IMG/VR virus record: IMGVR_UViG_3300045988_121667
Location: 1-32,086 of that record
Source of the DNA: a virus
Direction: 5' to 3' (one strand)
DNA: 32,086 nt
Shown in pieces: positions 1 to 32,086 of this stretch. The notes below the pieces were generated by a model that saw only the letters and a program-made list of their open reading frames with translations, had not been told where the DNA came from and ran no database searches. Each line of letters starts with the position of its first letter. Positions within the stretch are counted from its first letter, which is position 1. The position numbers and the translations under genes were made by a program.

Positions 1-99
1 ACCTTTGAAGGGTTCATCCTGCCTTACTACGTCTCCACGATGGAGGGCGCCAGATACCCGGTAGACGTTGAACACATGTACATCTACTGCGACGAGTAC
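1..99. repeat. Terminal direct repeat, left copy (identical to 31988-32086): circular-contig overlap or short terminal redundancy
   Basis: Read directly: bases 1-99 (acctttgaagggttcatcc...ctgcgacgagtac) are identical to 31988-32086. The repeat lies inside an ORF that stays in frame across the junction. Unit genome length is 31,987 bp. Confidence 0.95.
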
Positions 100-206: not shown

Positions 207-764
207 ATGAAAGTTACAGCATTGACATTTGAATTTGACGGGAGAAATGAACAAGAAGTTATTAACGTTACTAAGATGCTGAAAGAGCTACTTTCGGGCG
301 CCCCTGACGGGGTTTCAGCAGAAACGCATGCAGTTACACCTAAAGAGGAAGAAAAGCCCGTAGCGGTCAGCGAAACAACGTCTACAGCCGTGCCGACATT
401 CAACGAGCCAGCGCAACCCGTAGCACCTACGTTTAGCGAGCCGACGAAGACTGCCACCCCGAAAAGGGTTAAGACCGGGCCAGCCAAGGTAGAAGAACCT
501 GCAAAGGTAGAAGAACCTGCAAAGGTAGAAGAACCTGCAAAGGTAGAAGAACCTGCAAAGGTAGAAGGGGGAACGAAGAGGGAAGCACCTACTTTGAAGG
601 AGATGCAAACACTCGTTATATCAAGCGTTAGAACCGGGCACGTTACGCGAGATGAAATGTCGTCTATCCTATTAGAGTTCGGTGGTATGTCGCTTTCGTC
701 CATTAACCCTTCCAAGTATGCCTTACTTAAACAACGTATTGAAAATTATCCTTTGACAAGATGA
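207..764 (+). CDS. Hypothetical early protein with a Pro/Glu/Lys-rich linker containing (PAKVEE)n repeats
   Basis: 185-aa ORF in the track. It ends in an ATGA overlap with the next gene. The central low-complexity linker is encoded by an 18-bp tandem repeat. The C-terminal ~60 aa look globular (APTLKEMQTLVISSVRTGHVTRDEMSSILLEFGG...). Confidence 0.7.
   Translation: MKVTALTFEFDGRNEQEVINVTKMLKELLSGAPDGVSAETHAVTPKEEEKPVAVSETTSTAVPTFNEPAQPVAPTFSEPTKTATPKRVKTGPAKVEEPAKVEEPAKVEEPAKVEEPAKVEGGTKREAPTLKEMQTLVISSVRTGHVTRDEMSSILLEFGGMSLSSINPSKYALLKQRIENYPLTR
483..567 (+). repeat. 18-bp in-frame tandem repeat, about 4.7 copies (unit gcaaaggtagaagaacct)
   Basis: Copies at 483-500 (1 mismatch), 501-518, 519-536 and 537-554, plus a partial copy at 555-567. 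Encodes PAKVEE repeats inside CDS 207-764. Confidence 0.95.
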
Positions 765-6281: not shown

Positions 6282-8732
6282 ATGGAATTAAGGAAAATGA
6301 CCTTTAAGGTTGCGACCGCTACTAGTGCAAAGTCGGTAAGTTGGAAGAACCGTACCTACACATGGGACGACCTTGTTAAGAGGTTCACAAGTGCAAAGGT
6401 GACGGAGGAAACCTACCGCGAGTTCATGGCAGCGAGCAAAGCCGAACAAGGAGCAATCAAGGACGTAGGAGCATTCATGGGAGGAGAGCTGCTTGGAAGC
6501 AGACGAAGCAAGAACAACGTAGGCGAGCGTTCATTATTGGCGCTTGATATCGACTACGGAGAAGCCGATTTCCCGGAACGTTTTTTCGCTGCCATCAATT
6601 GCGCGTGTATCATTCACGGAACACATAAACATAACCCGAAAGCAGGTACGCTACGTTATCGCGTTATCATTCCCTTGTCTGAACCCGTGGATGGTGAACA
6701 ATACGAAGCTATCGCACGAAAGGTTGCCGAGATTACCGGGATAGACCTGTACGACCGCACGACGTTTCAGCCGGAACGCTGCATGTTCTTCCCGTCGGTG
6801 TCCCGCGATGTCGATTATTTTTACACCGACTATTCACAGTTATGTGAAACCCCTCTGGACGTGAACGAATACCTTAACATGTACGAGGATTGGCACGACA
6901 CGACCGAATGGGCCTACCATAAGGACGAGAAGGGCGAAGTACGTACCTTTGTTAAGGAGCAGCAGGACCCTACCTTAAAGGAAGGTACGGTGGGCGACTT
7001 TTGCCGGGCGTACACCATTTCAGAAGTCATCGCGAAATACCTGCCGGACGTTTACGAGCCGACAGACCGACCCGATAGATGGACGTATAGCGGTGGCTCC
7101 ACCTCGGGGGGCATGATTACCTTTGATGATATGTTCGCCTATTCGTTCCATAACAACGACCCTATCCAGGGAAACCACGTGTTTAATGCCTATGACCTGG
7201 TACGTGTACACAAGTTCGGTAAGATGGATAAGGGGCAAGACCGTACGAAGTCGACCGACGCGATGAACGAACTTGTAAACAAGGACGCGAAAGTAGCGGA
7301 GATGCGTGCATCCCGTTTGCTGGCAAAGACTACCGAGGTAATGAACGACTTCGAGGAAACGATAGAACCCGAAGAGGTTCACAATAATCTGCCCGAAGTA
7401 TCATTTGAAAAGGTCATGGCCGAACTCGAGGTTGATAAGAAAGGTAGCTACTTGCCGAGCGCAAAGAACCTGGGTCTCATACTTAAGTATGACCCGAATT
7501 TAAAAGGCCTGATTGCCCGTGACCTATTCAAAGAGCGCCGGGTTGTCACCCGTACCCCGATATGGAGACCGAAAGACAGTAGTACGGACTTTCAAGACGT
7601 AGACTTTGCGGGGGTTAGAAAGCATATCGAGGACGTCTACGGCATCAGTAGTTCGTTTAAGGTGGACGATGCCATATCGTTGGTTGCCGAGATTAATTCT
7701 TTCCACCCGGTGCAGAACTATCTGACTAACTTGGAATGGGACGGTACGGAACGTGTGGATACCGCGTTAATAGATATACTCGGTGCAGAGGATAACATAT
7801 ACACCCGTGAGGCATTTCGTATCATGATGGTAGGAGCTGTCAAGCGTATTTTCCAGAAAGGGTGTAAATTCGATAGTATGCTGGTGCTTCAGTCGGACCA
7901 AGGGGCAGGAAAAAGTACATTCCTTAAGATGCTGGGCAAACAGTGGTTCTCAGATAGCCTTTCAACCATGGACGGCAAGACAGCGTTTGAACAACTGCAA
8001 GGTAACTGGATATTGGAGATTGCCGAGTTATCAGCGATGAGACGTTCAGAGGTCGAGATGGTGAAAAACTTCATCACGAAGACAGAGGACAGCTTCCGAC
8101 CAGCGTACGGGCGTGTCACAAAGAACTTTCCGAGACAGTGCGTTTTCTTCGGTACGACTAACAAGGACGAGTTTTTGAAGGATGCAACCGGAGGGCGTAG
8201 ATTCCTACCCGTACATGTACGTGCCAACGAAAACACCCATCTTATCTTCGAGGCCGATTTCCCGGCATACGTAGACCAGTTATGGGCCGAGGCCGTCAAC
8301 ATGTATTTCCGCGGTGTGCCTACGTTGTTATCAGCCGAAGCTGAGGTGATAGCCGAACAAGGAAGAGAGGAACACTTCGAGACCGACCCACGTACCGAAG
8401 CGGTTGCAAGGTATTGCAATATGTACGTGCCTACCAACTGGGAGAAGATGTTCCCCCTGGAACGTCGTATGTATTACGAGAATTATGATGAAGGCGAGAT
8501 AAAGAAGGAGGAATGCGTGCGGATGGACTTCGTTAGCGCTACGGGCGTGCTGGTTGAGGCCTTAGGTTTCGAGGTAGGGAAAATCAAGGCAAAGGACGCT
8601 TCCGAGATTAGTGATATACTGAACAAGTTACCCGGATGGGAGCGTAGCAGGCAGAGGGTGAAGTCATACGGACAACAAAGGGGATTCAAAAGAATTGTTA
8701 ACGCAGGCGTCGATACCAAGTCTGAAAATTAA
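6282..8732 (+). CDS. Bifunctional primase-polymerase / VirE (D5-like, SF3) helicase
   Basis: 816 aa. The N-terminal AEP-type primase region has LLALDIDYG and RYRVIIPL. The C-terminal VirE/D5-type NTPase has P-loop SDQGAGKSTFLKML and Walker B-like WILEIAEL. Confidence 0.88.
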   Translation: MELRKMTFKVATATSAKSVSWKNRTYTWDDLVKRFTSAKVTEETYREFMAASKAEQGAIKDVGAFMGGELLGSRRSKNNVGERSLLALDIDYGEADFPERFFAAINCACIIHGTHKHNPKAGTLRYRVIIPLSEPVDGEQYEAIARKVAEITGIDLYDRTTFQPERCMFFPSVSRDVDYFYTDYSQLCETPLDVNEYLNMYEDWHDTTEWAYHKDEKGEVRTFVKEQQDPTLKEGTVGDFCRAYTISEVIAKYLPDVYEPTDRPDRWTYSGGSTSGGMITFDDMFAYSFHNNDPIQGNHVFNAYDLVRVHKFGKMDKGQDRTKSTDAMNELVNKDAKVAEMRASRLLAKTTEVMNDFEETIEPEEVHNNLPEVSFEKVMAELEVDKKGSYLPSAKNLGLILKYDPNLKGLIARDLFKERRVVTRTPIWRPKDSSTDFQDVDFAGVRKHIEDVYGISSSFKVDDAISLVAEINSFHPVQNYLTNLEWDGTERVDTALIDILGAEDNIYTREAFRIMMVGAVKRIFQKGCKFDSMLVLQSDQGAGKSTFLKMLGKQWFSDSLSTMDGKTAFEQLQGNWILEIAELSAMRRSEVEMVKNFITKTEDSFRPAYGRVTKNFPRQCVFFGTTNKDEFLKDATGGRRFLPVHVRANENTHLIFEADFPAYVDQLWAEAVNMYFRGVPTLLSAEAEVIAEQGREEHFETDPRTEAVARYCNMYVPTNWEKMFPLERRMYYENYDEGEIKKEECVRMDFVSATGVLVEALGFEVGKIKAKDASEISDILNKLPGWERSRQRVKSYGQQRGFKRIVNAGVDTKSEN

Positions 8733-10320: not shown

Positions 10321-10479
10321 ATGGTACATATATTAAAAGTAAGGATAGTGATAGATAACGAGCCGCCAAGAACGGTGCACCCTACGGAGCAGGTTTTCGC
10401 TACCGTAGAGGACGCAAGAGAGTTTTTTAAATCAGAGTATAAGACAGAAAAAGTGATAATGTATTATGAGCAACGTTAG
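10321..10479 (+). CDS. Small hypothetical protein (52 aa, below the track cutoff)
   Basis: Read by hand: ATG 10321 ... TAG 10477-10479 (MVHILKVRIVIDNEPPRTVHPTEQVFATVEDAREFFKSEYKTEKVIMYYEQR). It exactly fills the gap between neighbours and overlaps the next start by 14 nt. Confidence 0.4.
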   Translation: MVHILKVRIVIDNEPPRTVHPTEQVFATVEDAREFFKSEYKTEKVIMYYEQR

Positions 10480-11182
10480 AGATTACAATGTAGGAAAGTC
10501 CGATTATAGCAGGCACGTAATACAACCCTGGGATATATGGCGTGAATATGACTTGAACCCCTGGGATGCGGACATAGTCAAGCGCGTATTGCGTACCAAA
10601 GAGGGTGAAGATAGAAAGCTGGACTACGAGAAGATTATCCATGTATGCCAGGAGCGTATCAGACAGTTAGCGGTCGAACGGGCTGATGCCATGGAGGAGA
10701 GCGACGAGCCCGATTATAAGACAGTTATCTGCCCTTCCGAAAAGGACAAGCCCGAATTTCGGTACGGCTGTGGCACAGAGTTTGACGGAGTCTATAGGGT
10801 GTATAGCGTTTTTCAGTCCGAGGGCAGTCCATATGCGTACCTTGGGCATGACGGCCTATGCCACGTGTATTTGGACCTCGGTTCGTCTCGAAAGTGGGAC
10901 TATTTTGAATATGATTGGATGCCGGGAAGAACCTTTGGTCTACATGGCATACCATTAGACAAGGAAGACCACGCATCGTCAATGGAAATCGGTAAGCACG
11001 GCTTAACGTACGGGAGGCACGCCTATATAATGACTCATGGCAGCCTATACCGTTACATGGACGTCACACCGAAAGGACACGTGTATGCGAGGTTTGAGGA
11101 CAACGGGAAATTCACCAAGGTAGTGACAGAGCATAAACTATTTAACGAAGCAATTCAATATGTCAAGGGAAATAATAAGTGA
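10466..11182 (+). CDS. DUF3310-domain protein with a long uncharacterised C-terminal extension
   Basis: The N-terminal ~65 aa (NVGKSDYSRHVIQPWDIWREYDLNPWDADIVKRVLRTKEG...DYEKIIHVCQERI) follow the DUF3310 pattern. The remaining ~170 aa are unrecognised. Confidence 0.65.
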   Translation: MSNVRDYNVGKSDYSRHVIQPWDIWREYDLNPWDADIVKRVLRTKEGEDRKLDYEKIIHVCQERIRQLAVERADAMEESDEPDYKTVICPSEKDKPEFRYGCGTEFDGVYRVYSVFQSEGSPYAYLGHDGLCHVYLDLGSSRKWDYFEYDWMPGRTFGLHGIPLDKEDHASSMEIGKHGLTYGRHAYIMTHGSLYRYMDVTPKGHVYARFEDNGKFTKVVTEHKLFNEAIQYVKGNNK

Positions 11183-13353: not shown

Positions 13354-13532
13354 CAGATAAGGAAGTCAGGCATATGACTCCGGGCGAGCGTATCGCCCAT
13401 CATGAAGGCCGGCAGGGCATGAACCATTCCGTGATTGACGGTTCCGTGTCCGCGGTGTATGAAAGGCAGGGGAGCGCCTTAAGACTTGTCTCCCGAGGTG
13501 ATAGTATTAACAATGTAACTGAAAGGATATGA
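13350..13532 (+). CDS. Hypothetical protein (60 aa)
   Basis: ORF in the track. ATGA overlap with the SNF2 stop. Confidence 0.5.
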   Translation: MTDKEVRHMTPGERIAHHEGRQGMNHSVIDGSVSAVYERQGSALRLVSRGDSINNVTERI

Positions 13533-13648: not shown

Positions 13649-13770
13649 TTAAGATAATAGCAGGGTTCACGGTGGTGTTTTTCATCATGGGTATCGTCGC
13701 GGTCCTTTGGCAGGTGGCGAAGTATATGGCAACCCGAGGAATGGGGGAGGACGAAGAATATGAGGATTAG
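13645..13770 (+). CDS. Small hydrophobic (single-pass membrane) protein, about 41 aa, TTG start
   Basis: Read by hand: TTG 13645 overlaps the upstream stop. (M)IKIIAGFTVVFFIMGIVAVLWQVAKYMATRGMGEDEEYED, stop TAG 13768-13770, overlapping ATG 13760. The non-ATG start makes this tentative. Confidence 0.3.
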   Translation: MIKIIAGFTVVFFIMGIVAVLWQVAKYMATRGMGEDEEYED

Positions 13771-14173
13771 ATTCATGGACCTGGCGGTGTGCCTCAACGT
13801 ACACACGTTCATCATATGGGAGTTCATAAGGCGGCACGGTCTCGAGAAGGGCGTCAAGAAGGATAGATGGGGGCGCGGCAGCGTGCCACCCCGGGAATGT
13901 CGCAAATGGATTGACAAGCTGGCGACCTATATAAGCGGGCATGACTTCACATATAAGCAGGAAGTGAACAAGAGGCAATACCTGTTCCGGGATGAAGCCA
14001 GGCGCAACGAGGAGATGCGGAACGAACAGGACGCTCCAAGGCGATACACCATAGACAAGGAAGGGAGGATAAGTCGGGCAACCCTTTTCTCCGACGGGTC
14101 CATGATGATTTGGCATTGGAGCGCTGACGGTTGGCAATTTGATAGGTGGGAAGGCGATAAGGTTACTAAATGA
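13760..14173 (+). CDS. Hypothetical protein (137 aa), last gene of the early module
   Basis: ORF in the track. Trp-rich C-terminus (MMIWHWSADGWQFDRWEGD). Followed by a terminator. Confidence 0.6.
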   Translation: MRIRFMDLAVCLNVHTFIIWEFIRRHGLEKGVKKDRWGRGSVPPRECRKWIDKLATYISGHDFTYKQEVNKRQYLFRDEARRNEEMRNEQDAPRRYTIDKEGRISRATLFSDGSMMIWHWSADGWQFDRWEGDKVTK

Positions 14174-14217
14174 TAGTACCCCTTACGAATAGCATATACC
14201 TTTAAAAAATGATAGCA

Positions 14218-14272
14218 AAAGGGCGGTTTCGGCTTACAAATAGTCAGAAATCGCCCTTTGTCATTATTTTTT
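14218..14272 (+). terminator. Rho-independent terminator closing the early module
   Basis: AAAGGGCGGTTTC (14218-14230) pairs with GAAATCGCCCTTT (14247-14259), giving 13 bp with one G-U pair and a 16-nt loop. T6 run at 14267-14272. Confidence 0.6.
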
Positions 14273-14360
14273 ATGAAAGCCTAAATCTTAAAAAGTGTTT
14301 AGATTGTTAACTGAAAAATGCTTACCAAAATGCGCACCGTGCTAACGTGTTGATAATCAA

Positions 14361-14740
14361 ATGTGGCAAGTAAAAAATATAGGCGTGGCACAGTCCTTGT
14401 CTCAATTAACTTGCTGATTCACAATATCGTTAACAGTCACTGTGCCAGGAAAAATATAGGGTGGCACAGCAAGTGGCACAGATAACTCACTGACCTATAT
14501 ATAGTTATCTATACTGTGCCACTAAATAGTATAAAATAGGTATAACACTTTATTTGGAAAAATATATGGTAATTGCAATGTAGAGATAGCAGTAATATGT
14601 ACTATTTATAAAACAAGTGTTAGAAAAATGCGTTTTGGCCGGCACAGTGGCACAATCGCTCTAACGGTCTGATACATAGCGCGTTATCTGTGCCACTTGG
14701 ACTGTGCCACCAGAAGCGTGTCTGGCACAGTAGGCAAAAA
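14361..14740. repeat. NCR-A iteron array: 8 exact TGGCACAG sites plus variants around an AT-rich palindromic core
   Basis: Exact sites at 14385-93(+), 14440-48(-), 14461-69(+), 14473-81(+), 14514-22(-), 14688-96(-), 14702-10(-) and 14722-30(+). Variants at 14639-47 and 14647-55. Inner inverted repeat TAACACTT (14543-50) / AAGTGTTA (14615-22). No ORF of 60 aa or more on either strand. Confidence 0.9.
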
Positions 14741-14849
14741 CGCTTGTAACTCCCTGGAGGACAGTGCGTTATCCGTGACAACCCCTACTTTGTAAAAGAT
14801 TTTTGATTTTCACGACTGATTGCGGGTTGGTTTGTGGCAGGAAGTTATG

Positions 14850-14857
14850 TACTTTTG
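14850..14857 (+). promoter_or_regulatory. Bacteroidota-type -7 promoter box TActTTTG (late/packaging operon)
   Basis: Exact TAnnTTTG match at the 3' edge of NCR-A, 22 nt upstream of ATG 14879. It lies inside the GTG-started track ORF (14834), which argues against that start. Confidence 0.5.
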
Positions 14858-14878
14858 CCCCACACCCTTAAGGGAATA

Positions 14879-15562
14879 ATGGACCGCGCGCATGGACAAT
14901 ATCCATTGGCCACGCACGCATTAAACCGAATAACAATCATGGCAGGAAGAACAAAGAAAGAAGCCGTCCCCGATACGAAAAAGGAAATCAAGAAGGGCCA
15001 GGCGACCGGGAAGCCCCCGAAGGCAAAGGATGAAATCAAGGCCTGCACACAACTTTATGAGGTTGTGCAGACACGAGGCGTGAACGGTGCGACGCTTAAC
15101 AGCATCGACGAGTGTATTAACTATGTGGCCGAGTACATGGACTTCTGTGAGAAGAACCCGTTCATCTCATACGAGATACTGAAAGGTGGCGCATCAGCCG
15201 GGCAGAAAGTCCCGGTAGAGAAGAAACGCGCGCCCTCCGTCGGCGGTTTCTGCCTTTTCATAGGCTGGTCCATAAAGGACTTCAATAAGAACATGGGGAA
15301 GCTGGAGAAGGCCTCCGAGACGAACCCCGATGCCGGGAACCTTCTACTCGGTTACACCCTGATAAAGGAGCTCATAACGACCGAGATGGACGAAGCGGCT
15401 CTTGCCGGGGTGGTGGATGCCAACTACATGGCGAAACTACGAGGGTTGCGAGACCTTAAGGACATTACGAGCAATGGCAAGGAGGCAGGCACGAAGGCCA
15501 TGCAGGTCAATGTGCTTTCCGAGGACGCCGTCAAGAACCTACAGAAGTTAGGGGGTATCTGA
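14879..15562 (+). CDS. terS: Terminase small subunit
   Basis: Sits immediately upstream of TerL and overlaps it (TGATG). Basic N-terminus, then FCEKNPF...PSVGGFCLFIGWSIKDFNKN, which resembles the TerS HTH region. The start is uncertain (ATG 14879 or ATG 14939, MAGRTKKE...). Confidence 0.7.
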   Translation: MDRAHGQYPLATHALNRITIMAGRTKKEAVPDTKKEIKKGQATGKPPKAKDEIKACTQLYEVVQTRGVNGATLNSIDECINYVAEYMDFCEKNPFISYEILKGGASAGQKVPVEKKRAPSVGGFCLFIGWSIKDFNKNMGKLEKASETNPDAGNLLLGYTLIKELITTEMDEAALAGVVDANYMAKLRGLRDLKDITSNGKEAGTKAMQVNVLSEDAVKNLQKLGGI

Positions 15563-16707
15563 TGAATGTGACATATACATTTGAAAAGCTATTGGCGGCT
15601 TTCGTCGACCCCCGGATACGCGGTGTCGCATCAAAGGGCGGCACGCGTTCCGGCAAGACATGGGCGACGCTCCAGATGCTTCATCTGCTTTGCTCCACTG
15701 CGGAAAAGCCCCTTATCGTTTCGTGCGTCGCCGCTACGCTTCCCATGGTGAAACGGGGCATGCAGCGGGACTTCAGACAGATGCTGGCAGCCGAGGGCGT
15801 ATGGGATGAGAATTCGTTCAACAAGACCGAGGGGTGTTACACATACCCCAACGGCTGCATGATAGAGTTCTTTGGCGTCGATAACGCCTCGAAGGTGCAC
15901 GGCCCCGCACGTGATATCCTGTTCGTCAATGAGGCACAGAGCATACCGCGTGAAATCTTCAGGCAGCTCGACATCCGTACACGTAAGAAGGTCATTATCG
16001 ACTTCAACCCGGTACGTAAGTTCTGGGGTGAGACCGAGTTCGTAGGGGACCGATACGTAACCATCCATTCAACCTACAAGGATAACCCGTACCTAACCAA
16101 GGAGCAGGTGGGCGCCATCGAGAATAACAGGAACGACGCCAACTGGTGGCGTGTCTACGGTGAGGGCGAGACGGGCGGCGTAGAGGGCAACGTATATCCC
16201 AGCTACGAAGTCATCGACGAACTGCCCGAAACGTTCACCGGGCGATGTATCGGGCTTGACTTCGGTTTCGTTAAGGACCCGACGGCCATTGTCGATATAC
16301 GCTTCGAGGGCCGGGACCTGTACGTCGACCTGCTTTGCTACGAGACGGGTCTGCTTAACAGCGCCATCGCGGACTACCTGACGGACCAGGGGCTCAACCG
16401 CGTCGTCACCGTGTGCGATAGTGCAGAGCAGAAGAGTATCGTGGAGCTACAGCAAAGACATATCAAGGCGATACCGTGTGTCAAGGGGCGCGGCTCGATA
16501 TCGGCCGGTATCGCCCAGGTATCACAGTTCAAACTGCACGTAACGAAACGCAGCGCCAAGATGCTGGACGAGTTGGACAATTACAAGTTCATCAAGGACG
16601 AAGCGACGGACACGTACACCAATGAACCCATAGACGCCTGGAACCACTCTCTCGACGCCTTGCGTTATGGCGTGGATTACCTCATACGTAAATACCGCCC
16701 CAAATAG
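15562..16707 (+). CDS. terL: Terminase large subunit (PBSX/XtmB-like)
   Basis: Walker A KGGTRSGKTWA, Walker B ILFVNEAQS, and a C-terminal RNase H-like nuclease region IGLDFGFVKDPTAIV ... DALRYG. Confidence 0.88.
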   Translation: MNVTYTFEKLLAAFVDPRIRGVASKGGTRSGKTWATLQMLHLLCSTAEKPLIVSCVAATLPMVKRGMQRDFRQMLAAEGVWDENSFNKTEGCYTYPNGCMIEFFGVDNASKVHGPARDILFVNEAQSIPREIFRQLDIRTRKKVIIDFNPVRKFWGETEFVGDRYVTIHSTYKDNPYLTKEQVGAIENNRNDANWWRVYGEGETGGVEGNVYPSYEVIDELPETFTGRCIGLDFGFVKDPTAIVDIRFEGRDLYVDLLCYETGLLNSAIADYLTDQGLNRVVTVCDSAEQKSIVELQQRHIKAIPCVKGRGSISAGIAQVSQFKLHVTKRSAKMLDELDNYKFIKDEATDTYTNEPIDAWNHSLDALRYGVDYLIRKYRPK

Positions 16708-19694: not shown

Positions 19695-21302
19695 ATGGAA
19701 GTACAGATAAGAATAAACGGTGTGTTGTTGGAGGGCGTAGCGCCCGGTGCGGTTAAGCTTACCATCAACAACCCCGACCCTATTAAGTTTTCCGAGCGCA
19801 CTGTAAGCTATTCGGGAAGCATCACTGTACCCAGGTCACAAGTAAATGACCGGGTGCTAAAGTCCGAGCGCTTCCCGGGTTATTACACACGTACGGCGCC
19901 CTACGTTGCCGAGATTAGTTTTTCGGGGCTTGACGTTCCGTTCGGTGGCGGCCTGTTCCGTGCCCGCGTATCGGCAGACCCGGATAGCTATACGATTGAA
20001 CTGATAGAAACGGTATCGAAGTTATCCACCCTCCGCGCCCCGGTAGTTAATATACCCACCTTTGAAACGCCGGCGTACCAATTTTCGACGTATAGGGATA
20101 GTCTTAATTACGCGTACCCTACCCCGGTAGTCATGCCGAACCTTTATGCGGCTAACGGGACGACGCCCGTACAACTCGCATACGTGGAAAACCGGGTAAC
20201 GAAAACGGCAGGAGATTACAAGGACGCGGAAAGTCAGTTGGTGTTTAAGGGCGCGCATGACGGGCTCAAGGGTTCGGTGTATGCCGCCAATTACATGATA
20301 GCCGAGAATAACGACGTGGCTACGTGCTTCACGTATATGGTAGGCTCTACGTTCGACCTTGAATTCACCCCCGATTCGTTCGTTATCCTACCGTCTTACG
20401 CCCCCGCGACCGTTTACCTACGTAGTAATGGGGGTACGTTTGCCTTGCCTTTCGCGCGCGGAACGGTACGCCCGGATGGTAATTACCCGTACTACCCGGT
20501 AAACCCTGGCCGTACGTCGTGTATAATAACACCGAGACCGGCGCGAGACTTGAACTTCGGCTTTACGACCTCCGCGGCTTCCATGGTTTACTCTGGTACG
20601 CCTATCACTTCCGTACCTACTACCGAAGCGTATTATATTTCGTTCCACATCAGGGCGGTCGGGTCTCCAGCATATGCCTGGGACTTAGTGCCGACGATGG
20701 GGCTGAATACTCCGTTCGATATCGTGCAGGCGTTTTGCAAAGCGTTTTGCTGGACCTATGAATTTCAGTCCGAACCGTTTTCGTTGACCCTTAAGCCGTT
20801 CATAAACCCGTCTACCTCGTCGACGTATAGGATTAACTGGACCGGGAAGATAGACACAAGTACGGTTAAGGTGTCCGAAGCGGAAGGGGCGGCACGAACA
20901 TACGCGGTTAAGGTAGGCGAATTAACGCAAACCGTGGGCGGCTATGGCGGTGCGATAGCCACACAGGAGACAGCAGGAGAGAGTAATTTCCCGGTCAACC
21001 CTGGGGGGCCTAAACCATACGCCTCCATGATACGGGCAAGCGGTTCGAGCTGGATTCCTGATAACTACTTCAACCGTGCCGGTGGTTACCGCGCTACGAT
21101 AGACGGGCATTACGAAAGGTTTTCCCCAGGCTGGCAAGTAACGGCAAAGATGCGATTAACGTATTTTGACATTAAGAACATGAAGTCTGACGCGCTGTAT
21201 TACGTCGACGAGTTGGGCGCTTGGTTCTATCTTAGGACTATTAGCAGTTGGGACGCGTCAACGGGCACGGCTAACGTTACATTAATAGCCGTTAACAATT
21301 AA
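19695..21302 (+). CDS. Hypothetical structural protein (535 aa), possibly tail tip/receptor-binding
   Basis: ORF in the track. Large, beta-rich, Pro/Thr/Tyr-rich composition. Immediately upstream of the tape-measure-like gene. Confidence 0.55.
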   Translation: MEVQIRINGVLLEGVAPGAVKLTINNPDPIKFSERTVSYSGSITVPRSQVNDRVLKSERFPGYYTRTAPYVAEISFSGLDVPFGGGLFRARVSADPDSYTIELIETVSKLSTLRAPVVNIPTFETPAYQFSTYRDSLNYAYPTPVVMPNLYAANGTTPVQLAYVENRVTKTAGDYKDAESQLVFKGAHDGLKGSVYAANYMIAENNDVATCFTYMVGSTFDLEFTPDSFVILPSYAPATVYLRSNGGTFALPFARGTVRPDGNYPYYPVNPGRTSCIITPRPARDLNFGFTTSAASMVYSGTPITSVPTTEAYYISFHIRAVGSPAYAWDLVPTMGLNTPFDIVQAFCKAFCWTYEFQSEPFSLTLKPFINPSTSSTYRINWTGKIDTSTVKVSEAEGAARTYAVKVGELTQTVGGYGGAIATQETAGESNFPVNPGGPKPYASMIRASGSSWIPDNYFNRAGGYRATIDGHYERFSPGWQVTAKMRLTYFDIKNMKSDALYYVDELGAWFYLRTISSWDASTGTANVTLIAVNN

Positions 21303-29088: not shown

Positions 29089-29482
29089 GATAGCTACGGA
29101 CGTTAAAGACAATAAGATAGAGAAGGCCTTCTTTGAGGCTGACCTATTGGACATATTGCCCCAAGTGGGGGTGATGTACGAGGCTATCCCGGTAGAGTAC
29201 ATTGCGGACGGTGCAGACTTCGCAGGTGCGGAAAAGGTCATATGCTATTATGCCTTTGCCCGTTACCTGCAGATTGCAGACCAGAACAGTACGACCACCG
29301 GGATGAAGATTCAGACGTATGGAGGCTCAATAGTCGTTCCCGATACAAGTAAGGTTAAACGGTTCGAGGCCGAACGGGGCAAAGCCGATTTGCTTTTAGA
29401 ACCTTTGGTTTGCCGTATGAAAAAAGACGGCTTTATAAAGGTATGCATAGTTCAGAACTCGCGAATAGGGCTTATCAAGTGA
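29051..29482 (+). CDS. Hypothetical protein (143 aa; track ORF starts at TTG 29027)
   Basis: First ATG (MAYPIQKFRTLFEIATDVKDNK...). Overlaps the portal-like gene by 38 nt. Confidence 0.5.
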   Translation: MAYPIQKFRTLFEIATDVKDNKIEKAFFEADLLDILPQVGVMYEAIPVEYIADGADFAGAEKVICYYAFARYLQIADQNSTTTGMKIQTYGGSIVVPDTSKVKRFEAERGKADLLLEPLVCRMKKDGFIKVCIVQNSRIGLIK

Positions 29483-29508
29483 TAGAAAGCTTAGAATCTT
29501 ACTTCCGA

Positions 29509-29955
29509 ATGTTTTTCACTGTTACCGTTCTGACAGTTGTTTCGGATGTGAAGGACCTTATATTCATTGTTGTGATAGTGACCGCCCTAAACTGGTTAGC
29601 CGGGTATCTCGCAGACCGCCGAAAGGGCAAACCGTATCAGCACAAAAAGACAATGCAGGCCGTTAAGGAGCTATTTTTGACGAGCGCTATCTTGTTTTTT
29701 GTCGCTCTTACTTGTAATATGCTTGAACCGGGCATTGATTATAGGCTATTGATTAGGGGCCTCACGGGCATATTCCTTATTATATACGCGCGTAACATAA
29801 CAAGAAACCTACGGGTTGTTCAGCCGTCTAATGAATTTATAAAGGTGTTGAATAGTATTGCCAATAGCAAGTATTTCAGCCTCAAAAAGGAGATTAAGGA
29901 CGGTGAATGTGATTTGCCCATAGAAGAAAGGAAAGAAGATGGCGAACAGCAGTAA
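29509..29955 (+). CDS. Holin-like membrane protein (about 4 TM segments)
   Basis: Hydrophobic segments FFTVTVLTVV, LIFIVVIVTALNWLAGYL, LFLTSAILFFVALTCNML and LLIRGLTGIFLIIYA, plus a charged C-terminal tail. Immediately upstream of the lysin and overlapping it. Alternative starts at ATG 29443 and TTG 29410. Confidence 0.6.
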   Translation: MFFTVTVLTVVSDVKDLIFIVVIVTALNWLAGYLADRRKGKPYQHKKTMQAVKELFLTSAILFFVALTCNMLEPGIDYRLLIRGLTGIFLIIYARNITRNLRVVQPSNEFIKVLNSIANSKYFSLKKEIKDGECDLPIEERKEDGEQQ

Positions 29956-30454
29956 ACTTGTGCCGTTTATCCTCCAGTGGGAAGGCGGTTTTGTTAATGA
30001 CCCCGACGACTTAGGAGGGGCGACCAACAAAGGTATTACAATAGGCACGTTTACCGAGTACAGACGGAAGAAGGGGTTAAAGGCCCCTACCGTCGAGGAC
30101 TTGAAAGACATATCCGATGCCGAATGGCACGACGTTTTCAAGTCCTTGTACTGGGACAGGTGGAAAGCTGATGAGATTAAGAACCAATCAGTAGCCAATA
30201 TCCTAGTTGATTGGGTTTGGGCTTCCGGTGTGCACGGAATTAAAAGACCCCAAAAGTTGTTGGGTGTGGCAGCCGATGGGCTGGTAGGCCCAAAGACTAT
30301 CGCGGCGATTAACGCAGCAGACCAGAGAAAGCTGTTTGACGCTATCAAGGCGGACCGCGCAAAGTTTATCGACGAGATTTGCAAGGCACGTCCCAAGAAT
30401 GAGAAGTATAGAAAGGGTTGGATGAACCGTATTAATGCCATTAAGTATGAGTAG
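29939..30454 (+). CDS. Endolysin: GH108 N-acetylmuramidase with PG_binding_3 domain
   Basis: LVPFILQWEGGFVNDPDDLGGATNKGITIGTF is the GH108 signature (catalytic Glu in EGG). The C-terminal ADGLVGPKTIAAIN is the PG_binding_3 signature. Confidence 0.88.
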   Translation: MANSSKLVPFILQWEGGFVNDPDDLGGATNKGITIGTFTEYRRKKGLKAPTVEDLKDISDAEWHDVFKSLYWDRWKADEIKNQSVANILVDWVWASGVHGIKRPQKLLGVAADGLVGPKTIAAINAADQRKLFDAIKADRAKFIDEICKARPKNEKYRKGWMNRINAIKYE

Positions 30455-31025
30455 GTTCAAGCGTATCATGGTAATCGCTTTTGCTACCGTGATTGTCGGC
30501 GGTATCATATCTAGGTTGGTAGATACCGTTAAAAAGCAAAGGGCCGAAATACAGCGCCTCGATAGGAATATAGACGCGATGAACGAAGCCGAAGTACAAT
30601 ACATATCAAAGTTGGGCGATGCCGCTGTGAAGTGTAAAGCCTTGGAGCTATCCGCGAAGGAGCTAAAGAAACAGAACGCGGACCTATATGAAGAGGTGAA
30701 GGCGCTCGACGTTCGTTTGAAAGACGCGCTATCAGTTAGCAAGGTAGTGACAAGGACAGTGATTAAGGAGGTTGTGAGAACCGACACGATTGATGGGGCG
30801 GCAATAGCCGAATACCGCGACCCGTGGAACACGATTAGGTCAGAGCGAAGAGGAGACAGCACGGAGTTATCATACCAGGGTAATGACACGATAGTGGGGG
30901 TAATCTCTATTAGAAAGAAACGATTCCTCTTTTTTAGGTGGGGTGTCAAGTCGGTGGACTATGACGTTTCTAACAAAAACCCCAAATCTAGAATGAAAAT
31001 AGACCTGGCGGTGAAGTTTAAGTAA
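30435..31025 (+). CDS. Spanin-like lysis accessory protein (N-terminal TM anchor plus coiled coil)
   Basis: FKRIMVIAFATVIVGGIISRL is the TM segment, followed by the coiled coil KKQRAEIQRLDRNIDAMNEAE...KELKKQNADLYEEVKAL. Overlaps the lysin stop. Alternative start at ATG 30447. Confidence 0.55.
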   Translation: MPLSMSRFKRIMVIAFATVIVGGIISRLVDTVKKQRAEIQRLDRNIDAMNEAEVQYISKLGDAAVKCKALELSAKELKKQNADLYEEVKALDVRLKDALSVSKVVTRTVIKEVVRTDTIDGAAIAEYRDPWNTIRSERRGDSTELSYQGNDTIVGVISIRKKRFLFFRWGVKSVDYDVSNKNPKSRMKIDLAVKFK

Positions 31026-31037
31026 GACACGATTTAA

Positions 31038-31066
31038 GGGTGCATTCTTCGGAATGTGCCCTTTTT
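31038..31066 (+). terminator. Rho-independent terminator closing the late module
   Basis: GGGTGCATTC (31038-47) pairs with GAATGTGCCC (31052-61), giving 10 bp including two G-U pairs. TTCG tetraloop. T5 at 31062-66. Confidence 0.75.
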
Positions 31067-31076
31067 GCGTCTCAAA

Positions 31077-31431
31077 CTGTGCCACTGTGCCAGGCACGGT
31101 TTTTAGGTGGCACAGTCTTTGTCTCACTTAACTTGCTGTATTATAGTTACTTATAGAGGTGTGCCAGGTGAGACAGTGAAAATGGCATAACACTTTATTT
31201 TGGCGATTATTGAAATTTACCCCCTCTACTAAATATTCGTAGTATAGTAGTATTTTATATATTCCAAATAAAGTTATAAGAAAACCTCAGCCTCACCTGG
31301 CACAGTTGGCCTTTTTCCGTTGTAACGGCTTGATTTGTAGCGCATTAAGTGAGACAACGCATTTTCGAGAGGTGGCACAGTCCGAAATCGCATTTTTTAA
31401 ACGGTTGGTTTTCAACGTTTTAAGTGAGACA
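31077..31431. repeat. NCR-B iteron array: 5 exact TGGCACAG sites plus a variant, 3 TTAAGTGAGACA sites, and nested inverted repeats around an AT-rich core
   Basis: TGGCACAG sites at 31077-85(-), 31085-93(-), 31107-15(+), 31297-305(+) and 31372-80(+). Variant at 31159-67. TTAAGTGAGACA at 31120-31(-), 31345-56(+) and 31420-31(+). Inverted repeat GTGCCAGGTGAG (31161-72) / CTCACCTGGCAC (31292-303). Inner inverted repeat ACTTTATTTTGG (31192-203) / CCAAATAAAGT (31264-74). Confidence 0.9.
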
Positions 31432-31488
31432 GAGCACTTTTATTCTTAAATGATGTTAACAGAATATACGGTCTATCGATAAAAGCCG

Positions 31489-31496
31489 TATATTTG
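31489..31496 (+). promoter_or_regulatory. Bacteroidota-type -7 promoter box TAtaTTTG (early operon)
   Basis: Exact TAnnTTTG match at the 3' edge of NCR-B, about 90 nt upstream of the first early ORF. Confidence 0.5.
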
Positions 31497-31586
31497 TAAC
31501 GTTGAAAGGGAGAAACCGAGGTTTACTCACCTAACGGAAGGTCACCGAGACATTAAAACGGAAATAAACGATTAAAAGATAGAATT

Positions 31587-31805
31587 GTGAAAGCGATTAA
31601 CCGTATTCTTAGAGAAACCATTAAAGAAGGTAAGTTCGAGATGAAAAGCCATATCCTTGTATTCTTGGACGATAACGGTACGGAGCAGAGTGCGCCCTTT
31701 ACAGAGGTACGTTTCGATGGGCATCTTGACAGCTACCAGTTCGAAGGAGTAGCCTATATATTCATGCAGCCAATGTTAGAAGCGATATATAATAAAAAAC
31801 GTTAA
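31587..31805 (+). CDS. Hypothetical protein, first early gene (72 aa from GTG 31587; 54 aa from ATG 31641)
   Basis: ORF in the track. It is the first ORF after NCR-B. No motif recognised and the start is uncertain. Confidence 0.45.
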   Translation: MKAINRILRETIKEGKFEMKSHILVFLDDNGTEQSAPFTEVRFDGHLDSYQFEGVAYIFMQPMLEAIYNKKR

Positions 31806-31867: not shown

Positions 31868-32086
31868 ATGAAAGGGAAAGGGAAAGAGAAAGAGAAAGAG
31901 TTCATCATTGCGGAGGTGAAAAAGCATTTATCCGCATCAGTTAAAAGGAGTAAGTACGAAGTTATCGAGGCATCAAAGAACATGCCTACCTTTGAAGGGT
32001 TCATCCTGCCTTACTACGTCTCCACGATGGAGGGCGCCAGATACCCGGTAGACGTTGAACACATGTACATCTACTGCGACGAGTAC
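31868..32086 (+). CDS. Hypothetical protein, 5' part of the junction-spanning gene (continues at 100-183 after collapsing the overlap)
   Basis: ATG 31868 is open to the window end with exactly 73 codons. The sequence from 31988 onward duplicates bases 1-99. The N-terminus KGKGKEKEKE is encoded by a 30-nt polypurine microsatellite. Confidence 0.7.
   Translation, partial: MKGKGKEKEKEFIIAEVKKHLSASVKRSKYEVIEASKNMPTFEGFILPYYVSTMEGARYPVDVEHMYIYCDEY
31988..32086. repeat. Terminal direct repeat, right copy (identical to 1-99)
   Basis: Read directly; see the left copy. Confidence 0.95.

What the first reader, a model, noticed from the sequence alone, without database searches (positions are those of the whole stretch)
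31067..31500. NCR-B: second iteron region upstream of the early operon, built as a nested imperfect palindrome about 145 bp long
No ORF of 60 aa or more lies on either strand between 31128 and 31586.
- TGGCACAG sites: 31077-85(-) and 31085-93(-) (overlapping by one base), 31107-15(+), 31297-305(+), 31372-80(+). Variant GTGTGCCAG at 31159-67.
- The central part is a nested inverted repeat. The outer arms are GTGCCAGGTGAG (31161-72) and CTCACCTGGCAC (31292-303), a perfect 12-bp pair.
- The inner arms are ATAAC-ac-TTTATTTTGG (31187-203) and CCAAATAAA-GTTAT (31264-77).
- These enclose about 60 bp of roughly 73% A+T DNA that contains a GTAGTAT direct duplication (31239-53).

Such a symmetric arrangement could extrude a cruciform. 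It could also position two oppositely oriented binding-protein assemblies around a melting region. It has the same design as NCR-A but different spacing.
Basis: partly seen in the sequence, partly recalled or inferred. Interest (0 to 1): 0.8.

Follow-up and report, generated by a model that had tools for sequence, protein, structure and literature searches.

The report
Phage replication-origin module with initiator-matched iterons
This non-coding stretch of a small Bacteroides-type phage genome is most likely one of two near-identical replication-origin modules: short repeats that converge on an AT-rich core and that appear to be read by the winged-helix tail of the phage's own primase-helicase, a design already known from staphylococcal pathogenicity islands.

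Summary
TGGCACAG occurs 14 times in the window against 0.55 expected, and 13 copies lie in two non-coding regions. NCR-B has 10 sites in the frame TGT-(GC/CT)-CA. They converge on a 116-bp stretch that is 72% A+T.

NCR-A and NCR-B are paralogous modules. Both are present in 4 cultured Bacteroides phages and about 55 IMG/VR relatives, with the same backbone. The repeat itself changes in concert at every site and in both modules: TGGCACA, TGGAACA, TGCACAG, TACACAG, GACACAG, TGACCAG or TGTNACA, depending on lineage.

I screened 2,956 variable protein columns against repeat type. The six best columns are all in the VapE-type primase-helicase, and the top three are adjacent residues in the wing of a predicted C-terminal winged-helix domain. 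That protein is homologous to SaPI1 Rep (PDB 7PDS). SaPI origins have the same design: iterons in opposite orientation on each side of an AT-rich centre.

The cruciform reading is not. The kind is known (SaPI Rep/ori, P4 ori/crr, SPP1 oriL/oriR). What is new is the host group and a duplicated module at each operon boundary. No binding or initiation experiment exists.

The parts
31038..31066 (+). Intrinsic terminator of the late (structural/lysis) operon: GGGTGCATTC-TTCG-GAATGTGCCC followed by T5. It marks the 5' edge of NCR-B.
   Evidence: Read directly from the sequence. It follows the stop codon of ORF 30435-31025.
31077..31115 (.). Distal left iteron set: two tandem sites CTGTGCCA-CTGTGCCA (31077-92) and one inverted site TGGCACAG (31108-15).
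   Evidence: Invariant in 6 close relatives.
31117..31131 (+). Variant iteron TGT-CT-CAC inside CTTTGTCTCACTTAA. It occupies the same alignment position as an iteron in NCR-A and in other lineages.
   Evidence: (I1, I6).
31159..31175 (.). Proximal left iteron pair GTGTGCCAG / GTGAGACAG, next to the AT-rich core.
   Evidence: (I4). In the EMB-type relatives this position holds a tandem iteron pair.
31176..31291 (.). A+T-rich core (71.6% A+T, 116 bp), the proposed DNA-unwinding region. It contains the inner inverted repeat 31187-203 / 31264-77 and the GTAGTAT duplication.
   Evidence: (I22). An iteron-free gap of 105-140 bp is present in every module of every lineage.
31292..31305 (+). First right-hand iteron (CTCACC-TGGCACAG), oriented opposite to the left proximal site.
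   Evidence: (I4).
31320..31440 (+). A 75-bp tandem duplication (31320-65 / 31395-440; 72% identical). Together with the stretch between the two copies, this span holds three more right-hand sites, all in the same orientation: 31349-56 (variant), 31373-80 (canonical), 31424-31 (variant).
   Evidence: (D1, D2).
31443..31500 (+). Conserved early-promoter block. It contains the only Bacteroides-type -7 box (TAnnTTTG = TATATTTG, 31489-96) in NCR-B and lies downstream of the iteron module. The first early ORF starts at 31587.
   Evidence: The consensus TAnnTTTG is from my own knowledge of Bacteroides sigma-AB promoters.
14386..14730 (.). NCR-A, the paralogous module upstream of the terminase genes. 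It has 8 exact and 2 one-mismatch TGGCACAG-type sites plus one TGTCTCA variant (14398-404), around an AT-rich core 14523-14639 (75% A+T).
6282..8732 (+). Primase-helicase gene (816 aa): VapE-like/DUF5906 SF3-type helicase core at aa 481-698. This is the proposed initiator that reads the iterons.
   Evidence: 7pds_A, E = 9e-76.
8514..8693 (+). Region encoding the predicted C-terminal winged-helix domain (aa 745-804). Recognition helix AKDASEISDILNK; wing WERSRQRV-KSY-GQQRGFKR (nt 8637-8693).
   Evidence: AlphaFold2 model with pLDDT 86.8. Foldseek top hits are the 7PDS chains, TM 0.70. Sequence. Wing residues covary with iteron type.

Best explanation
NCR-B is one of two copies (with NCR-A) of an iteron-type replication-origin module. 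It belongs to a phage whose initiator is its own self-loading primase-helicase.

Proposed mechanism:
- The C-terminal winged-helix domain of the 816-aa VapE-type primase-helicase recognises 7-8-bp sites of the form TGT-(GC/CT)-CA (= TGGCACA on the other strand).
- In NCR-B, six sites lie to the left and four to the right of a 116-bp A+T-rich core, and the two sets point towards it.
- Helicase rings assembled on the two flanks melt the core, load themselves, prime and start replication. This is the model proposed for SaPI Rep proteins.
- The early promoter lies downstream of the module and is a separate element.

What is shown:
- The repeats and their architecture.
- The duplication of the module.
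- Conservation across about 60 genomes.
- Concerted change of the sites.
- Specific covariation of site type with the wing of the helicase's winged-helix domain.
- Homology of that protein to SaPI1 Rep.

What is inferred: physical binding, melting, and initiation at either or both modules.
For: 1. Enrichment and clustering. TGGCACAG occurs 14 times against 0.55 expected, and 13 copies are in the two NCRs. The wider frame TGTSYCA occurs 29 times against 11.5 expected.

2. Shared module. NCR-A and NCR-B align over about 300 bp. The same two modules occur in Bacteroides phages EMB1, EMB2, BX788P2 and C2_18_80S2P, and in IMG/VR relatives.

3. Concerted change of the repeat. The module backbone is collinear, but the repeat differs by lineage at every site: TGGCACA, TGGAACA, TGCACAG, TACACAG, GACACAG, TGACCAG or TGT[ACT]ACA. 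In 25 of 26 genomes that hold both modules, A and B carry the same type. This points to a trans-acting reader.

4. Covariation screen. Among 2,956 variable columns of all ORF families in the EMB-clade loci, the six best adjusted-mutual-information scores against iteron type are all in the primase-helicase. The top three (0.67-0.76) are adjacent residues: 'N-GKT' goes with TGCACAG, 'D-AKS' with TACACAG and 'G-RRA' with TGACCAG. The best column of any other family scores 0.41, including the genes that flank the modules. The ACC-type and A-type wings each occur on different sequence backgrounds.

5. Structure. Those residues lie in strand 1 of the beta-hairpin wing of a confidently modelled helix-turn-helix plus wing domain (pLDDT 86.8). 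Its only significant structural matches are the chains of SaPI1 PriRep1-dsDNA, 7PDS (TM 0.70, E = 1e-5). The helicase core matches 7pds_A by sequence at E = 9e-76 and matches Pfam VapE-like/DUF5906.

6. Literature (PMC9371898). SaPI Reps are initiator-helicases whose C-terminal winged-helix domain recognises iterons. SaPI origins have 6-12 iterons, an AT-rich centre, and at least two iterons on each side pointing in opposite directions. Two hexamers are thought to load, one on each side.

7. Every module in every lineage has an iteron-free gap of 105-140 bp flanked by oppositely oriented sites. In this window's two modules that gap is 72-75% A+T.
Against: - There is no experimental binding, melting or initiation data for this phage group. 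The EMB1/EMB2 genome announcement mentions no origin.
- In SaPIs the origin lies immediately downstream of rep. Here the modules are about 5.7 kb downstream and about 7 kb upstream of the helicase gene.
- Two full modules per genome are more than one origin needs.
- Both modules sit just upstream of the only two recognisable promoters. A transcriptional role is therefore not excluded and could coexist with origin function.
- The covariation is not phylogeny-corrected, and the number of independent switches is small: 3 ACC-type, 6 A-type and 1 GAC-type locus against 29 G-type.
- Genes more than 10 kb from the helicase gene (most structural genes) were not screened.
- Cumulative GC skew rises monotonically because all genes are on one strand, so it gives no origin signal.
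Confidence: 0.7

Rival explanations
1. The repeats are operator or enhancer sites for a phage transcription regulator that controls the early and late promoters. The regulator could be the primase-helicase acting as a repressor or activator, or another protein. On this reading the two modules are regulatory regions, not origins.
For: Each module lies 100-400 bp upstream of the single Bacteroides-type -7 box of its NCR (31489 and 14850). These are the starts of the genome's only two transcription units. Iteron-binding initiators of plasmids commonly autoregulate (my own knowledge).
Against: - None of the other early ORF families screened (50 aa or more, held by at least 15 typed loci) covaries with site type. 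The best score outside the helicase is 0.41, against 0.76.
- None of the small early ORFs has a Pfam DNA-binding domain.
- The design of 10 sites converging on a conserved AT-rich gap of about 120 bp is typical of origins and unusual for operators.
- The sites are far from the -33/-7 region.
Confidence: 0.13
2. The module is a packaging recognition region (pac or cos-like), bound by the small terminase subunit.
For: NCR-A lies directly upstream of terS/terL. EMB2 is reported as a headful (pac) packager with circularly permuted ends. Arrays of short repeats in both orientations are typical of terminase binding sites (my own knowledge).
Against: - NCR-B carries the same module about 16.6 kb from the terminase genes.
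- terS columns show little covariation with site type (at most 0.32).
- The wing of the helicase's winged-helix domain covaries instead.
Confidence: 0.04
3. The 145-bp nested palindrome is itself the functional element. It would act as a cruciform or hairpin in DNA, or as a structured non-coding RNA.
For: - The outer arms are a perfect 13-bp pair and the inner core a perfect 9-bp pair.
- The whole unit folds better than shuffles (z = -3.1).
- Short inverted boxes flanking the core recur in other lineages, with apparently compensatory differences: AACACTT/AAGTGTT, ATACTT/AAGTAT and AGACTT/AAGTCT. I read these by eye.
Against: - The outer arms are 119 bp apart and consist of iterons. The inner region alone is no better than shuffles (z = -0.56), and the NCR-A equivalent gives z = -0.33.
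- In EMB-type modules the inner pairing is reduced to about 5 bp.
- There is no Rfam match.
- Cruciform extrusion favours short spacers (my own knowledge).
Confidence: 0.05
4. TGGCAC-N5-TTGT copies are sigma-54-type promoters.
For: Two copies read TGGCACAGTCyTTGTC (14386 and 31108). This resembles TGGCAC-N5-TTGC (consensus from my own knowledge).
Against: - Most copies lack the -12 element, and many are on the non-coding strand.
- In sister lineages the same positions read TGCACAG, TGACCAG or TGTNACA, without the GG.
Confidence: 0.01

Closest known systems
SaPI (Staphylococcus aureus pathogenicity island) Rep / PriRep initiator-helicases and their ori
   Same: - The initiator is homologous: VapE-like SF3-type helicase core, 7pds_A at E = 9e-76, and a C-terminal domain fold match with TM 0.70.
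- As in PriRep5, it is fused to an N-terminal region. Here that region is called a primase only by PHROG family names.
- The origin design is the same: 6-12 short iterons, an AT-rich centre, and iterons on both sides in opposite orientation (PMC9371898).
- Initiator and iterons show lineage-specific specificities.
   Different: - The host is a Bacteroides-type siphophage, not a Gram-positive satellite.
- The iterons are 7-8 bp, against 5-6 bp in SaPIs.
- The module is not immediately downstream of the helicase gene.
- There are two complete modules per genome, each at an operon boundary.
- The phage also encodes its own family-A DNA polymerase, SSB and nucleases.
Satellite phage P4 alpha protein with ori and crr
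   Same: One polypeptide combines primase, SF3 helicase and a C-terminal winged-helix origin-binding domain. An octameric iteron (TGTTCACC) occurs in two separate regions of the genome, ori and crr (my own knowledge: Ziegelin et al. 1993; Yeo et al. 2002).
   Different: - No sequence or fold match to P4 alpha was found or specifically tested. It was not among the top 50 Foldseek hits.
- P4 crr is a repeat region with no ori-like architecture of its own. Here the two modules are full paralogues.
- Whether both modules are required in cis is unknown.
Bacillus phage SPP1 oriL / oriR bound by gp38
   Same: SPP1 is also a pac-type siphophage. It has two origin-like regions of similar organisation (direct repeats plus an AT-rich unwinding element), about 13 kb apart and bound by one initiator. 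The second region lies in a long intergenic region of the late genes and is proposed to stall forks and trigger the theta-to-sigma switch (PMC6316719, PMC3485210). The window phage likewise encodes exonucleases, an annealing-type SSB and a VRR-NUC nuclease.
   Different: The initiator family is different: gp38 with the loader gp39 and the DnaB-type helicase gp40, against a self-loading VapE-type primase-helicase here. oriL lies inside gene 38, whereas both modules here are intergenic.
Lambda-type and plasmid iteron origins (O protein/ori-lambda; RepA/TrfA-type Rep proteins)
   Same: Iterons lie next to an AT-rich unwinding region, and initiator and iterons co-diversify.
   Different: Those initiators are not helicases and recruit host DnaB. 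[quoted passage not shown]

Membership tests
SaPI Rep-type origin (self-loading initiator-helicase plus iterons) | The initiator is a VapE/D5-like SF3-clade helicase | tested here: met
   Pfam VapE-like_dom at 3.7e-80 and DUF5906. Sequence match to SaPI1 Rep, 7pds_A, at E = 9e-76 over aa 394-736.
SaPI Rep-type origin (self-loading initiator-helicase plus iterons) | The C-terminal domain contains a winged-helix DNA-binding domain | tested here: met
   AlphaFold2 model of aa 680-816 with pLDDT 86.8, showing helix-turn-helix plus a beta-hairpin wing. The only significant Foldseek hits are the 7PDS chains, TM 0.70. This rests on a predicted model, not a solved structure.
SaPI Rep-type origin (self-loading initiator-helicase plus iterons) | Six to twelve short iterons with an AT-rich centre, and at least two on each side pointing in opposite directions | tested here: met
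   NCR-B has 6 sites to the left (4 forward, 2 reverse) and 4 to the right (all reverse) of the 116-bp core, which is 72% A+T. The same holds in NCR-A and in all lineages.
SaPI Rep-type origin (self-loading initiator-helicase plus iterons) | [quoted passage not shown] | tested here: not met
   The helicase gene ends at 8732. The modules are at 14386-14730 and 31077-31431. This is a typical feature of SaPIs but probably not a mechanistic requirement.
SaPI Rep-type origin (self-loading initiator-helicase plus iterons) | The initiator binds its cognate iterons specifically | tested here: inconclusive
   Indirect evidence only. The wing residues are the top covarying columns among 2,956.
SaPI Rep-type origin (self-loading initiator-helicase plus iterons) | The region supports initiation of replication | not testable with these tools
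   This needs marker-frequency analysis, 2D gels or a plasmid ori assay.
P4 ori/crr system | The same iteron occurs in two separate cis regions bound by one primase-helicase | tested here: met
   Two modules carry the same iteron type in 25 of 26 genomes.
P4 ori/crr system | Homology of the initiator to P4 alpha, and a requirement for both regions in cis | not tested
   No P4 alpha comparison was run, and the cis requirement is an experimental question.
Cruciform-forming palindrome | A long, near-perfect inverted repeat with a short spacer, conserved as a pairing | tested here: not met
   The 13-bp arms are 119 bp apart. The inner part gives z = -0.56 and NCR-A gives z = -0.33. The arms are iterons.
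Sigma-54 promoter | GG-N10-GC (-24/-12) on the coding strand upstream of a gene | tested here: not met
   Most copies lack the -12 element or lie on the other strand. Sister lineages lack the GG.

The most novel reading that the evidence does not exclude
Both modules may be functional, and their placement may be the point. Each sits immediately upstream of one of the genome's only two promoters, and the two are almost antipodal on the 31,987-bp circle (16.65 kb apart).

On this reading the initiator-helicase would do more than start replication. One module (probably NCR-B, ahead of the replication genes) would fire first. The initiator bound at the other would then act either as a programmed fork barrier that triggers the theta-to-concatemer switch, as proposed for SPP1 oriR, or as a replication-coupled switch for late transcription and packaging next to terS.

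The seven or more natural pairings of wing and iteron would also give a readable recognition code for this winged-helix family.
Probability: 0.2. Interest if true: 0.7.

Novelty: new member of a known kind. Interest (0 to 1): 0.5.

Why it matters
- Replication origins are essentially unmapped in gut Bacteroides phages. This result gives precise, testable coordinates for two candidate origins and names the likely initiator.
- It extends the SaPI-type mechanism, in which a self-loading helicase reads iterons with a winged helix, from Gram-positive satellites to a widespread group of Bacteroidota siphophages.
- The natural series of at least seven iteron variants, matched to changes in three or four wing residues, is a ready-made data set. 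It can be used to work out, and to re-engineer, the DNA-recognition code of this domain.
- It also bears on incompatibility and cross-replication between co-infecting relatives.
- The duplicated module at both operon boundaries may bear on how small pac phages coordinate replication, late expression and concatemer formation.

Tried and rejected
1. Sigma-54 promoter reading of TGGCAC-N5-TTGT. Rejected because of copy orientation and because the GG is absent in sister lineages.

2. 'Each site is flipped in place between clades.' I first read the maps this way. The multi-lineage alignment shows a simpler answer. With the frame TG(T)-NN-CA(G), and the window motif read on the other strand (TGTGCCA), orthologous sites share one orientation in all lineages.

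3. GTGAGACA as the site of a second protein. It fits the same frame (TGT-CT-CAC) and occupies iteron positions. I therefore treat it as a variant iteron, though a distinct reader is not excluded.

4. Other candidate readers.
- ORF 207-764 is the most divergent core early protein (32-42% identity between clades), and ORF 13760-14173 is also divergent. Neither has a Pfam domain or type-discriminating columns.
- Family f41 scored high on raw mutual information only because its columns are hypervariable. The signal disappears with adjusted mutual information.

5. Mean within-type against between-type identity was uninformative because of mosaicism. The first attempt at that analysis timed out.

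6. A word-indexed protein search with the C-terminal domain alone returned only 2 hits. A longer query was needed.

7. No PDB sequence homologue was found for the N-terminal 393 aa.

8. The window-type module has no blastn match in GenBank phages.

9. Rfam returned nothing for NCR-B.

10. The sigma-70-style promoter and terminator scan is not informative for Bacteroides.

11. Cumulative GC skew is uninformative.

Full report
**What the window is.** All genes are on the + strand. The first 99 bases repeat the last 99, so this is a circular assembly of 31,987 bp. The nearest cultured relatives are Bacteroides siphophages EMB1, EMB2, C2_18_80S2P and BX788P2, at 72-74% nucleotide identity in the lysis region. 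EMB1 and EMB2 are reported as circularly permuted, and EMB2 as a headful packager.

The genome has two transcription blocks.
- NCR-B (31026-31586) precedes small early ORFs and a replication module. That module holds a DUF2800-type exonuclease, a gp2.5-like SSB, a second exonuclease, a family-A DNA polymerase, an 816-aa primase-helicase, a methyltransferase fragment, a nuclease and an SNF2 helicase.
- NCR-A (14174-14833) precedes terS, terL, and the structural and lysis genes.

**Checking the observation.**
- TGGCACAG occurs 14 times against 0.55 expected, with 0 of 100 shuffles reaching 14. Eight copies are in NCR-A, five in NCR-B and one at 10771.
- The outer arms are a perfect 13-bp pair, 31160-72 / 31292-304. 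The inner arms have a perfect 9-bp core.
- The core 31176-31291 is 71.6% A+T, against 51.9% for the window.
- A second repeat, GTGAGACA, occurs four times, all in NCR-B. On the other strand it reads TGT-CT-CAC, the same frame as TGT-GC-CA (the complement of TGGCACA). Counted this way NCR-B has ten sites: six to the left of the core (four forward, two reverse) and four to the right (all reverse). The frame is itself enriched, at 29 against 11.5 expected.

**NCR-A and NCR-B are copies of one module.** They align over about 300 bp, well beyond the repeats. Shared blocks include GGTGGCACAGTCyTTGTCTCAmTTAACTTGCTG, GGyATAACACTTTATTTGG and TAACGG..TGAT..TAGCGC.TTA. Each NCR has exactly one Bacteroides-type -7 box (TAnnTTTG; consensus from my own knowledge), at its 3' end and downstream of the module: 31489-96 and 14850-57. 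The NCR-B box lies in a block that is conserved in all relatives.

**Relatives.** The four cultured phages have no TGGCACAG, but they have the same two modules in the same places, built on TGCACAG. I fetched sixty IMG/VR loci around primase-helicase homologues.
- Close relatives of the window have NCR-B 31020-31300 about 99% identical. That leaves no variation to test.
- More distant lineages carry other variants: TGGAACA, TACACAG, GACACAG, TGACCAG or TGT[A/C/T]ACA.
- In alignments the backbone is collinear and the repeat changes at every site position together.
- In 25 of 26 genomes that hold both modules, A and B carry the same variant. The exception has a truncated module.
- Every module has an iteron-free gap of 105-140 bp flanked by oppositely oriented sites.
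- I at first thought the sites were individually flipped between clades. Reading all variants in the frame TG(T)-NN-CA(G) removes this, and the sites then converge on the core in all lineages.

Concerted change in two unlinked modules calls for a trans-acting reader that co-evolves with them.

**Which protein reads the sites.** The genomes are strongly mosaic. For the TGACCAG lineage almost no ORF family has a single discriminating column, but the primase-helicase has two to three.

An adjusted-mutual-information screen of 2,956 variable columns in all ORF families against iteron type puts the six best columns in the primase-helicase.
- The top three (0.67-0.76) are neighbouring residues.
- The best column of any other family reaches 0.41, including genes next to the modules.
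- The pairing reads: AAN-GKT with TGCACAG; AD-AKS with TACACAG; AN-AK/ARP with GACACAG; AG-RR/RK-A with TGACCAG.
- In deeper clades: SRQ-RVKSY with TGGCACA (this window); SRR-RCKAH with TGGAACA; S/A/G-T/V-R-R(S/C/N)KA(Y/H) with TGTNACA.
- The putative recognition helix is invariant within the EMB clade, so the switches there map to the wing.

**What that protein is.**
- Pfam finds a VapE-like domain (aa 481-698) and DUF5906.
- The only PDB sequence match is 7pds_A (E = 9e-76, aa 394-736). This is SaPI1 Rep bound to DNA (PMC9371898).
- An AlphaFold2 model of aa 680-816, built on 66 homologues, has pLDDT 86.8. It ends in helix (ATGVLVEA), helix (AKDASEISDILNK), strand (WERSRQRV), turn and strand (GQQRGFKR), which is a winged helix.
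- Its only significant Foldseek matches are the six 7PDS chains (TM 0.70, E about 1e-5). Weaker hits are forkhead, IRF and MarR-type winged helices.
- The covarying residues fall in wing strand 1, near the tip.

**Comparison with what is known.** Qiao et al. (PMC9371898) summarise SaPI replication as follows. Rep proteins are initiator-helicases whose C-terminal winged helix recognises iterons. The ori holds 6-12 iterons with an AT-rich centre and at least two iterons on each side pointing in opposite directions. No loader is needed, and two hexamers are thought to load on the two sides. NCR-B and NCR-A meet each architectural point.

The differences from SaPIs are these:
- The host group is different.
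- The iterons are 7-8 bp.
- The modules are not adjacent to the helicase gene.
- There are two complete modules, 16.65 kb apart on a 31,987-bp circle (52% of the circle).

Two origin-like regions read by one initiator have precedents.
- SPP1 oriL and oriR have similar repeats plus an AT-rich unwinding element. gp38 bound at oriR is proposed to stall forks and trigger the switch to concatemer synthesis (PMC6316719; PMC3485210).
- P4 has ori and crr (my own knowledge).

**The palindrome and cruciform idea.** The 145-nt unit folds better than shuffles (z = -3.1), but only through the outer arms. Those arms are iterons plus GGTGAG, 119 nt apart. The inner part gives z = -0.56 and the NCR-A counterpart gives z = -0.33.

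Short inverted boxes at the edges of the core do recur in several lineages, with differing sequence. I read these by eye, and they are weak in the EMB clade. I regard them as a possible minor feature of the unwinding region, not as a cruciform. Rfam finds nothing.

Origin activity, binding and the role of the second module remain inferences. A transcriptional role for the same sites is the main rival and could coexist. This is a new member of a known kind. It has two useful extras: the duplicated module at both operon boundaries, and a natural series of wing-iteron pairs.

Noticed in passing
window 1-99 and 31988-32086: The first 99 bases are identical to the last 99. The window is therefore a circular assembly with a true length of 31,987 bp. 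The ORF starting at 31869 continues across the junction.
   Followed up: partly
window 14834-14881: The listed GTG start of terS (14834) lies upstream of the only -7-type box of NCR-A (TACTTTTG, 14850-57). An in-frame ATG at 14879 is the more likely start.
   Followed up: partly
L001 (EMB2) record 29309-29831; L003 (EMB1) record 19864-20384; L002 23064-23227; L004 6541-6704: The EMB-type relatives have a third non-coding region just downstream of the primase-helicase gene. It holds one or two extra copies of the conserved early-promoter block (TTCTTAAATGrTGTTAAyrGAATATAC...GCCGTATATTTG) but no iterons. The window has only a 90-bp gap at that position.
   Followed up: partly
L001 NCR-C (record 29309-29831, reverse strand); L002 about 13360-13450; L004 NCR-B (record 15799-16407, reverse strand): A conserved element of about 80 nt lies downstream of the early-promoter copies in some relatives: GGTTGyTCTTTACyrAAACTAAGArCACGATACCC...GGAAAGTTTGAAAAGTGAATGGGATTCAAACACCG. 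It is absent from the window. It could be a leader or a small RNA.
   Followed up: no
L052 12630-12974; also the 3' part of NCR-A in L001-L004, L038 and L059: A variable tandem array lies between module A and terS, with up to about 17-18 copies in L052 of a unit containing AATACCGGG and GGGATAG/GGACTAT-type 6-7-mers (as counted on either strand). Shorter GTCCGAATACT- and CTACTACT-type repeats occur at the same place in other relatives. It may be related to packaging (pac).
   Followed up: no
window 10768-10778: A single TGGCACAG lies inside ORF 10466-11182, within the near-palindrome CTGTGGCACAG. It is the only exact copy outside the two NCRs and may be a chance match.
   Followed up: no
window 207-764: This 185-aa early protein, which has no family match, is the most divergent core gene between clades (32-42% identity where its neighbours are 70-85%). 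It does not track iteron type.
   Followed up: partly
window about 14217-14259: NCR-A also opens with a terminator-like hairpin, AAAGGGCGGTTTC ... GAAATCGCCCTTT, followed by a T-rich run. It mirrors the UUCG-loop terminator at 31038-31066 that opens NCR-B.
   Followed up: no
L049 2200-2660 and 18720-19200: One lineage mixes TGTCACA and TGTTACA/TGTAACA sites within both modules. Its reader therefore seems to tolerate any base at the centre of a palindromic TGT-N-ACA site.
   Followed up: partly
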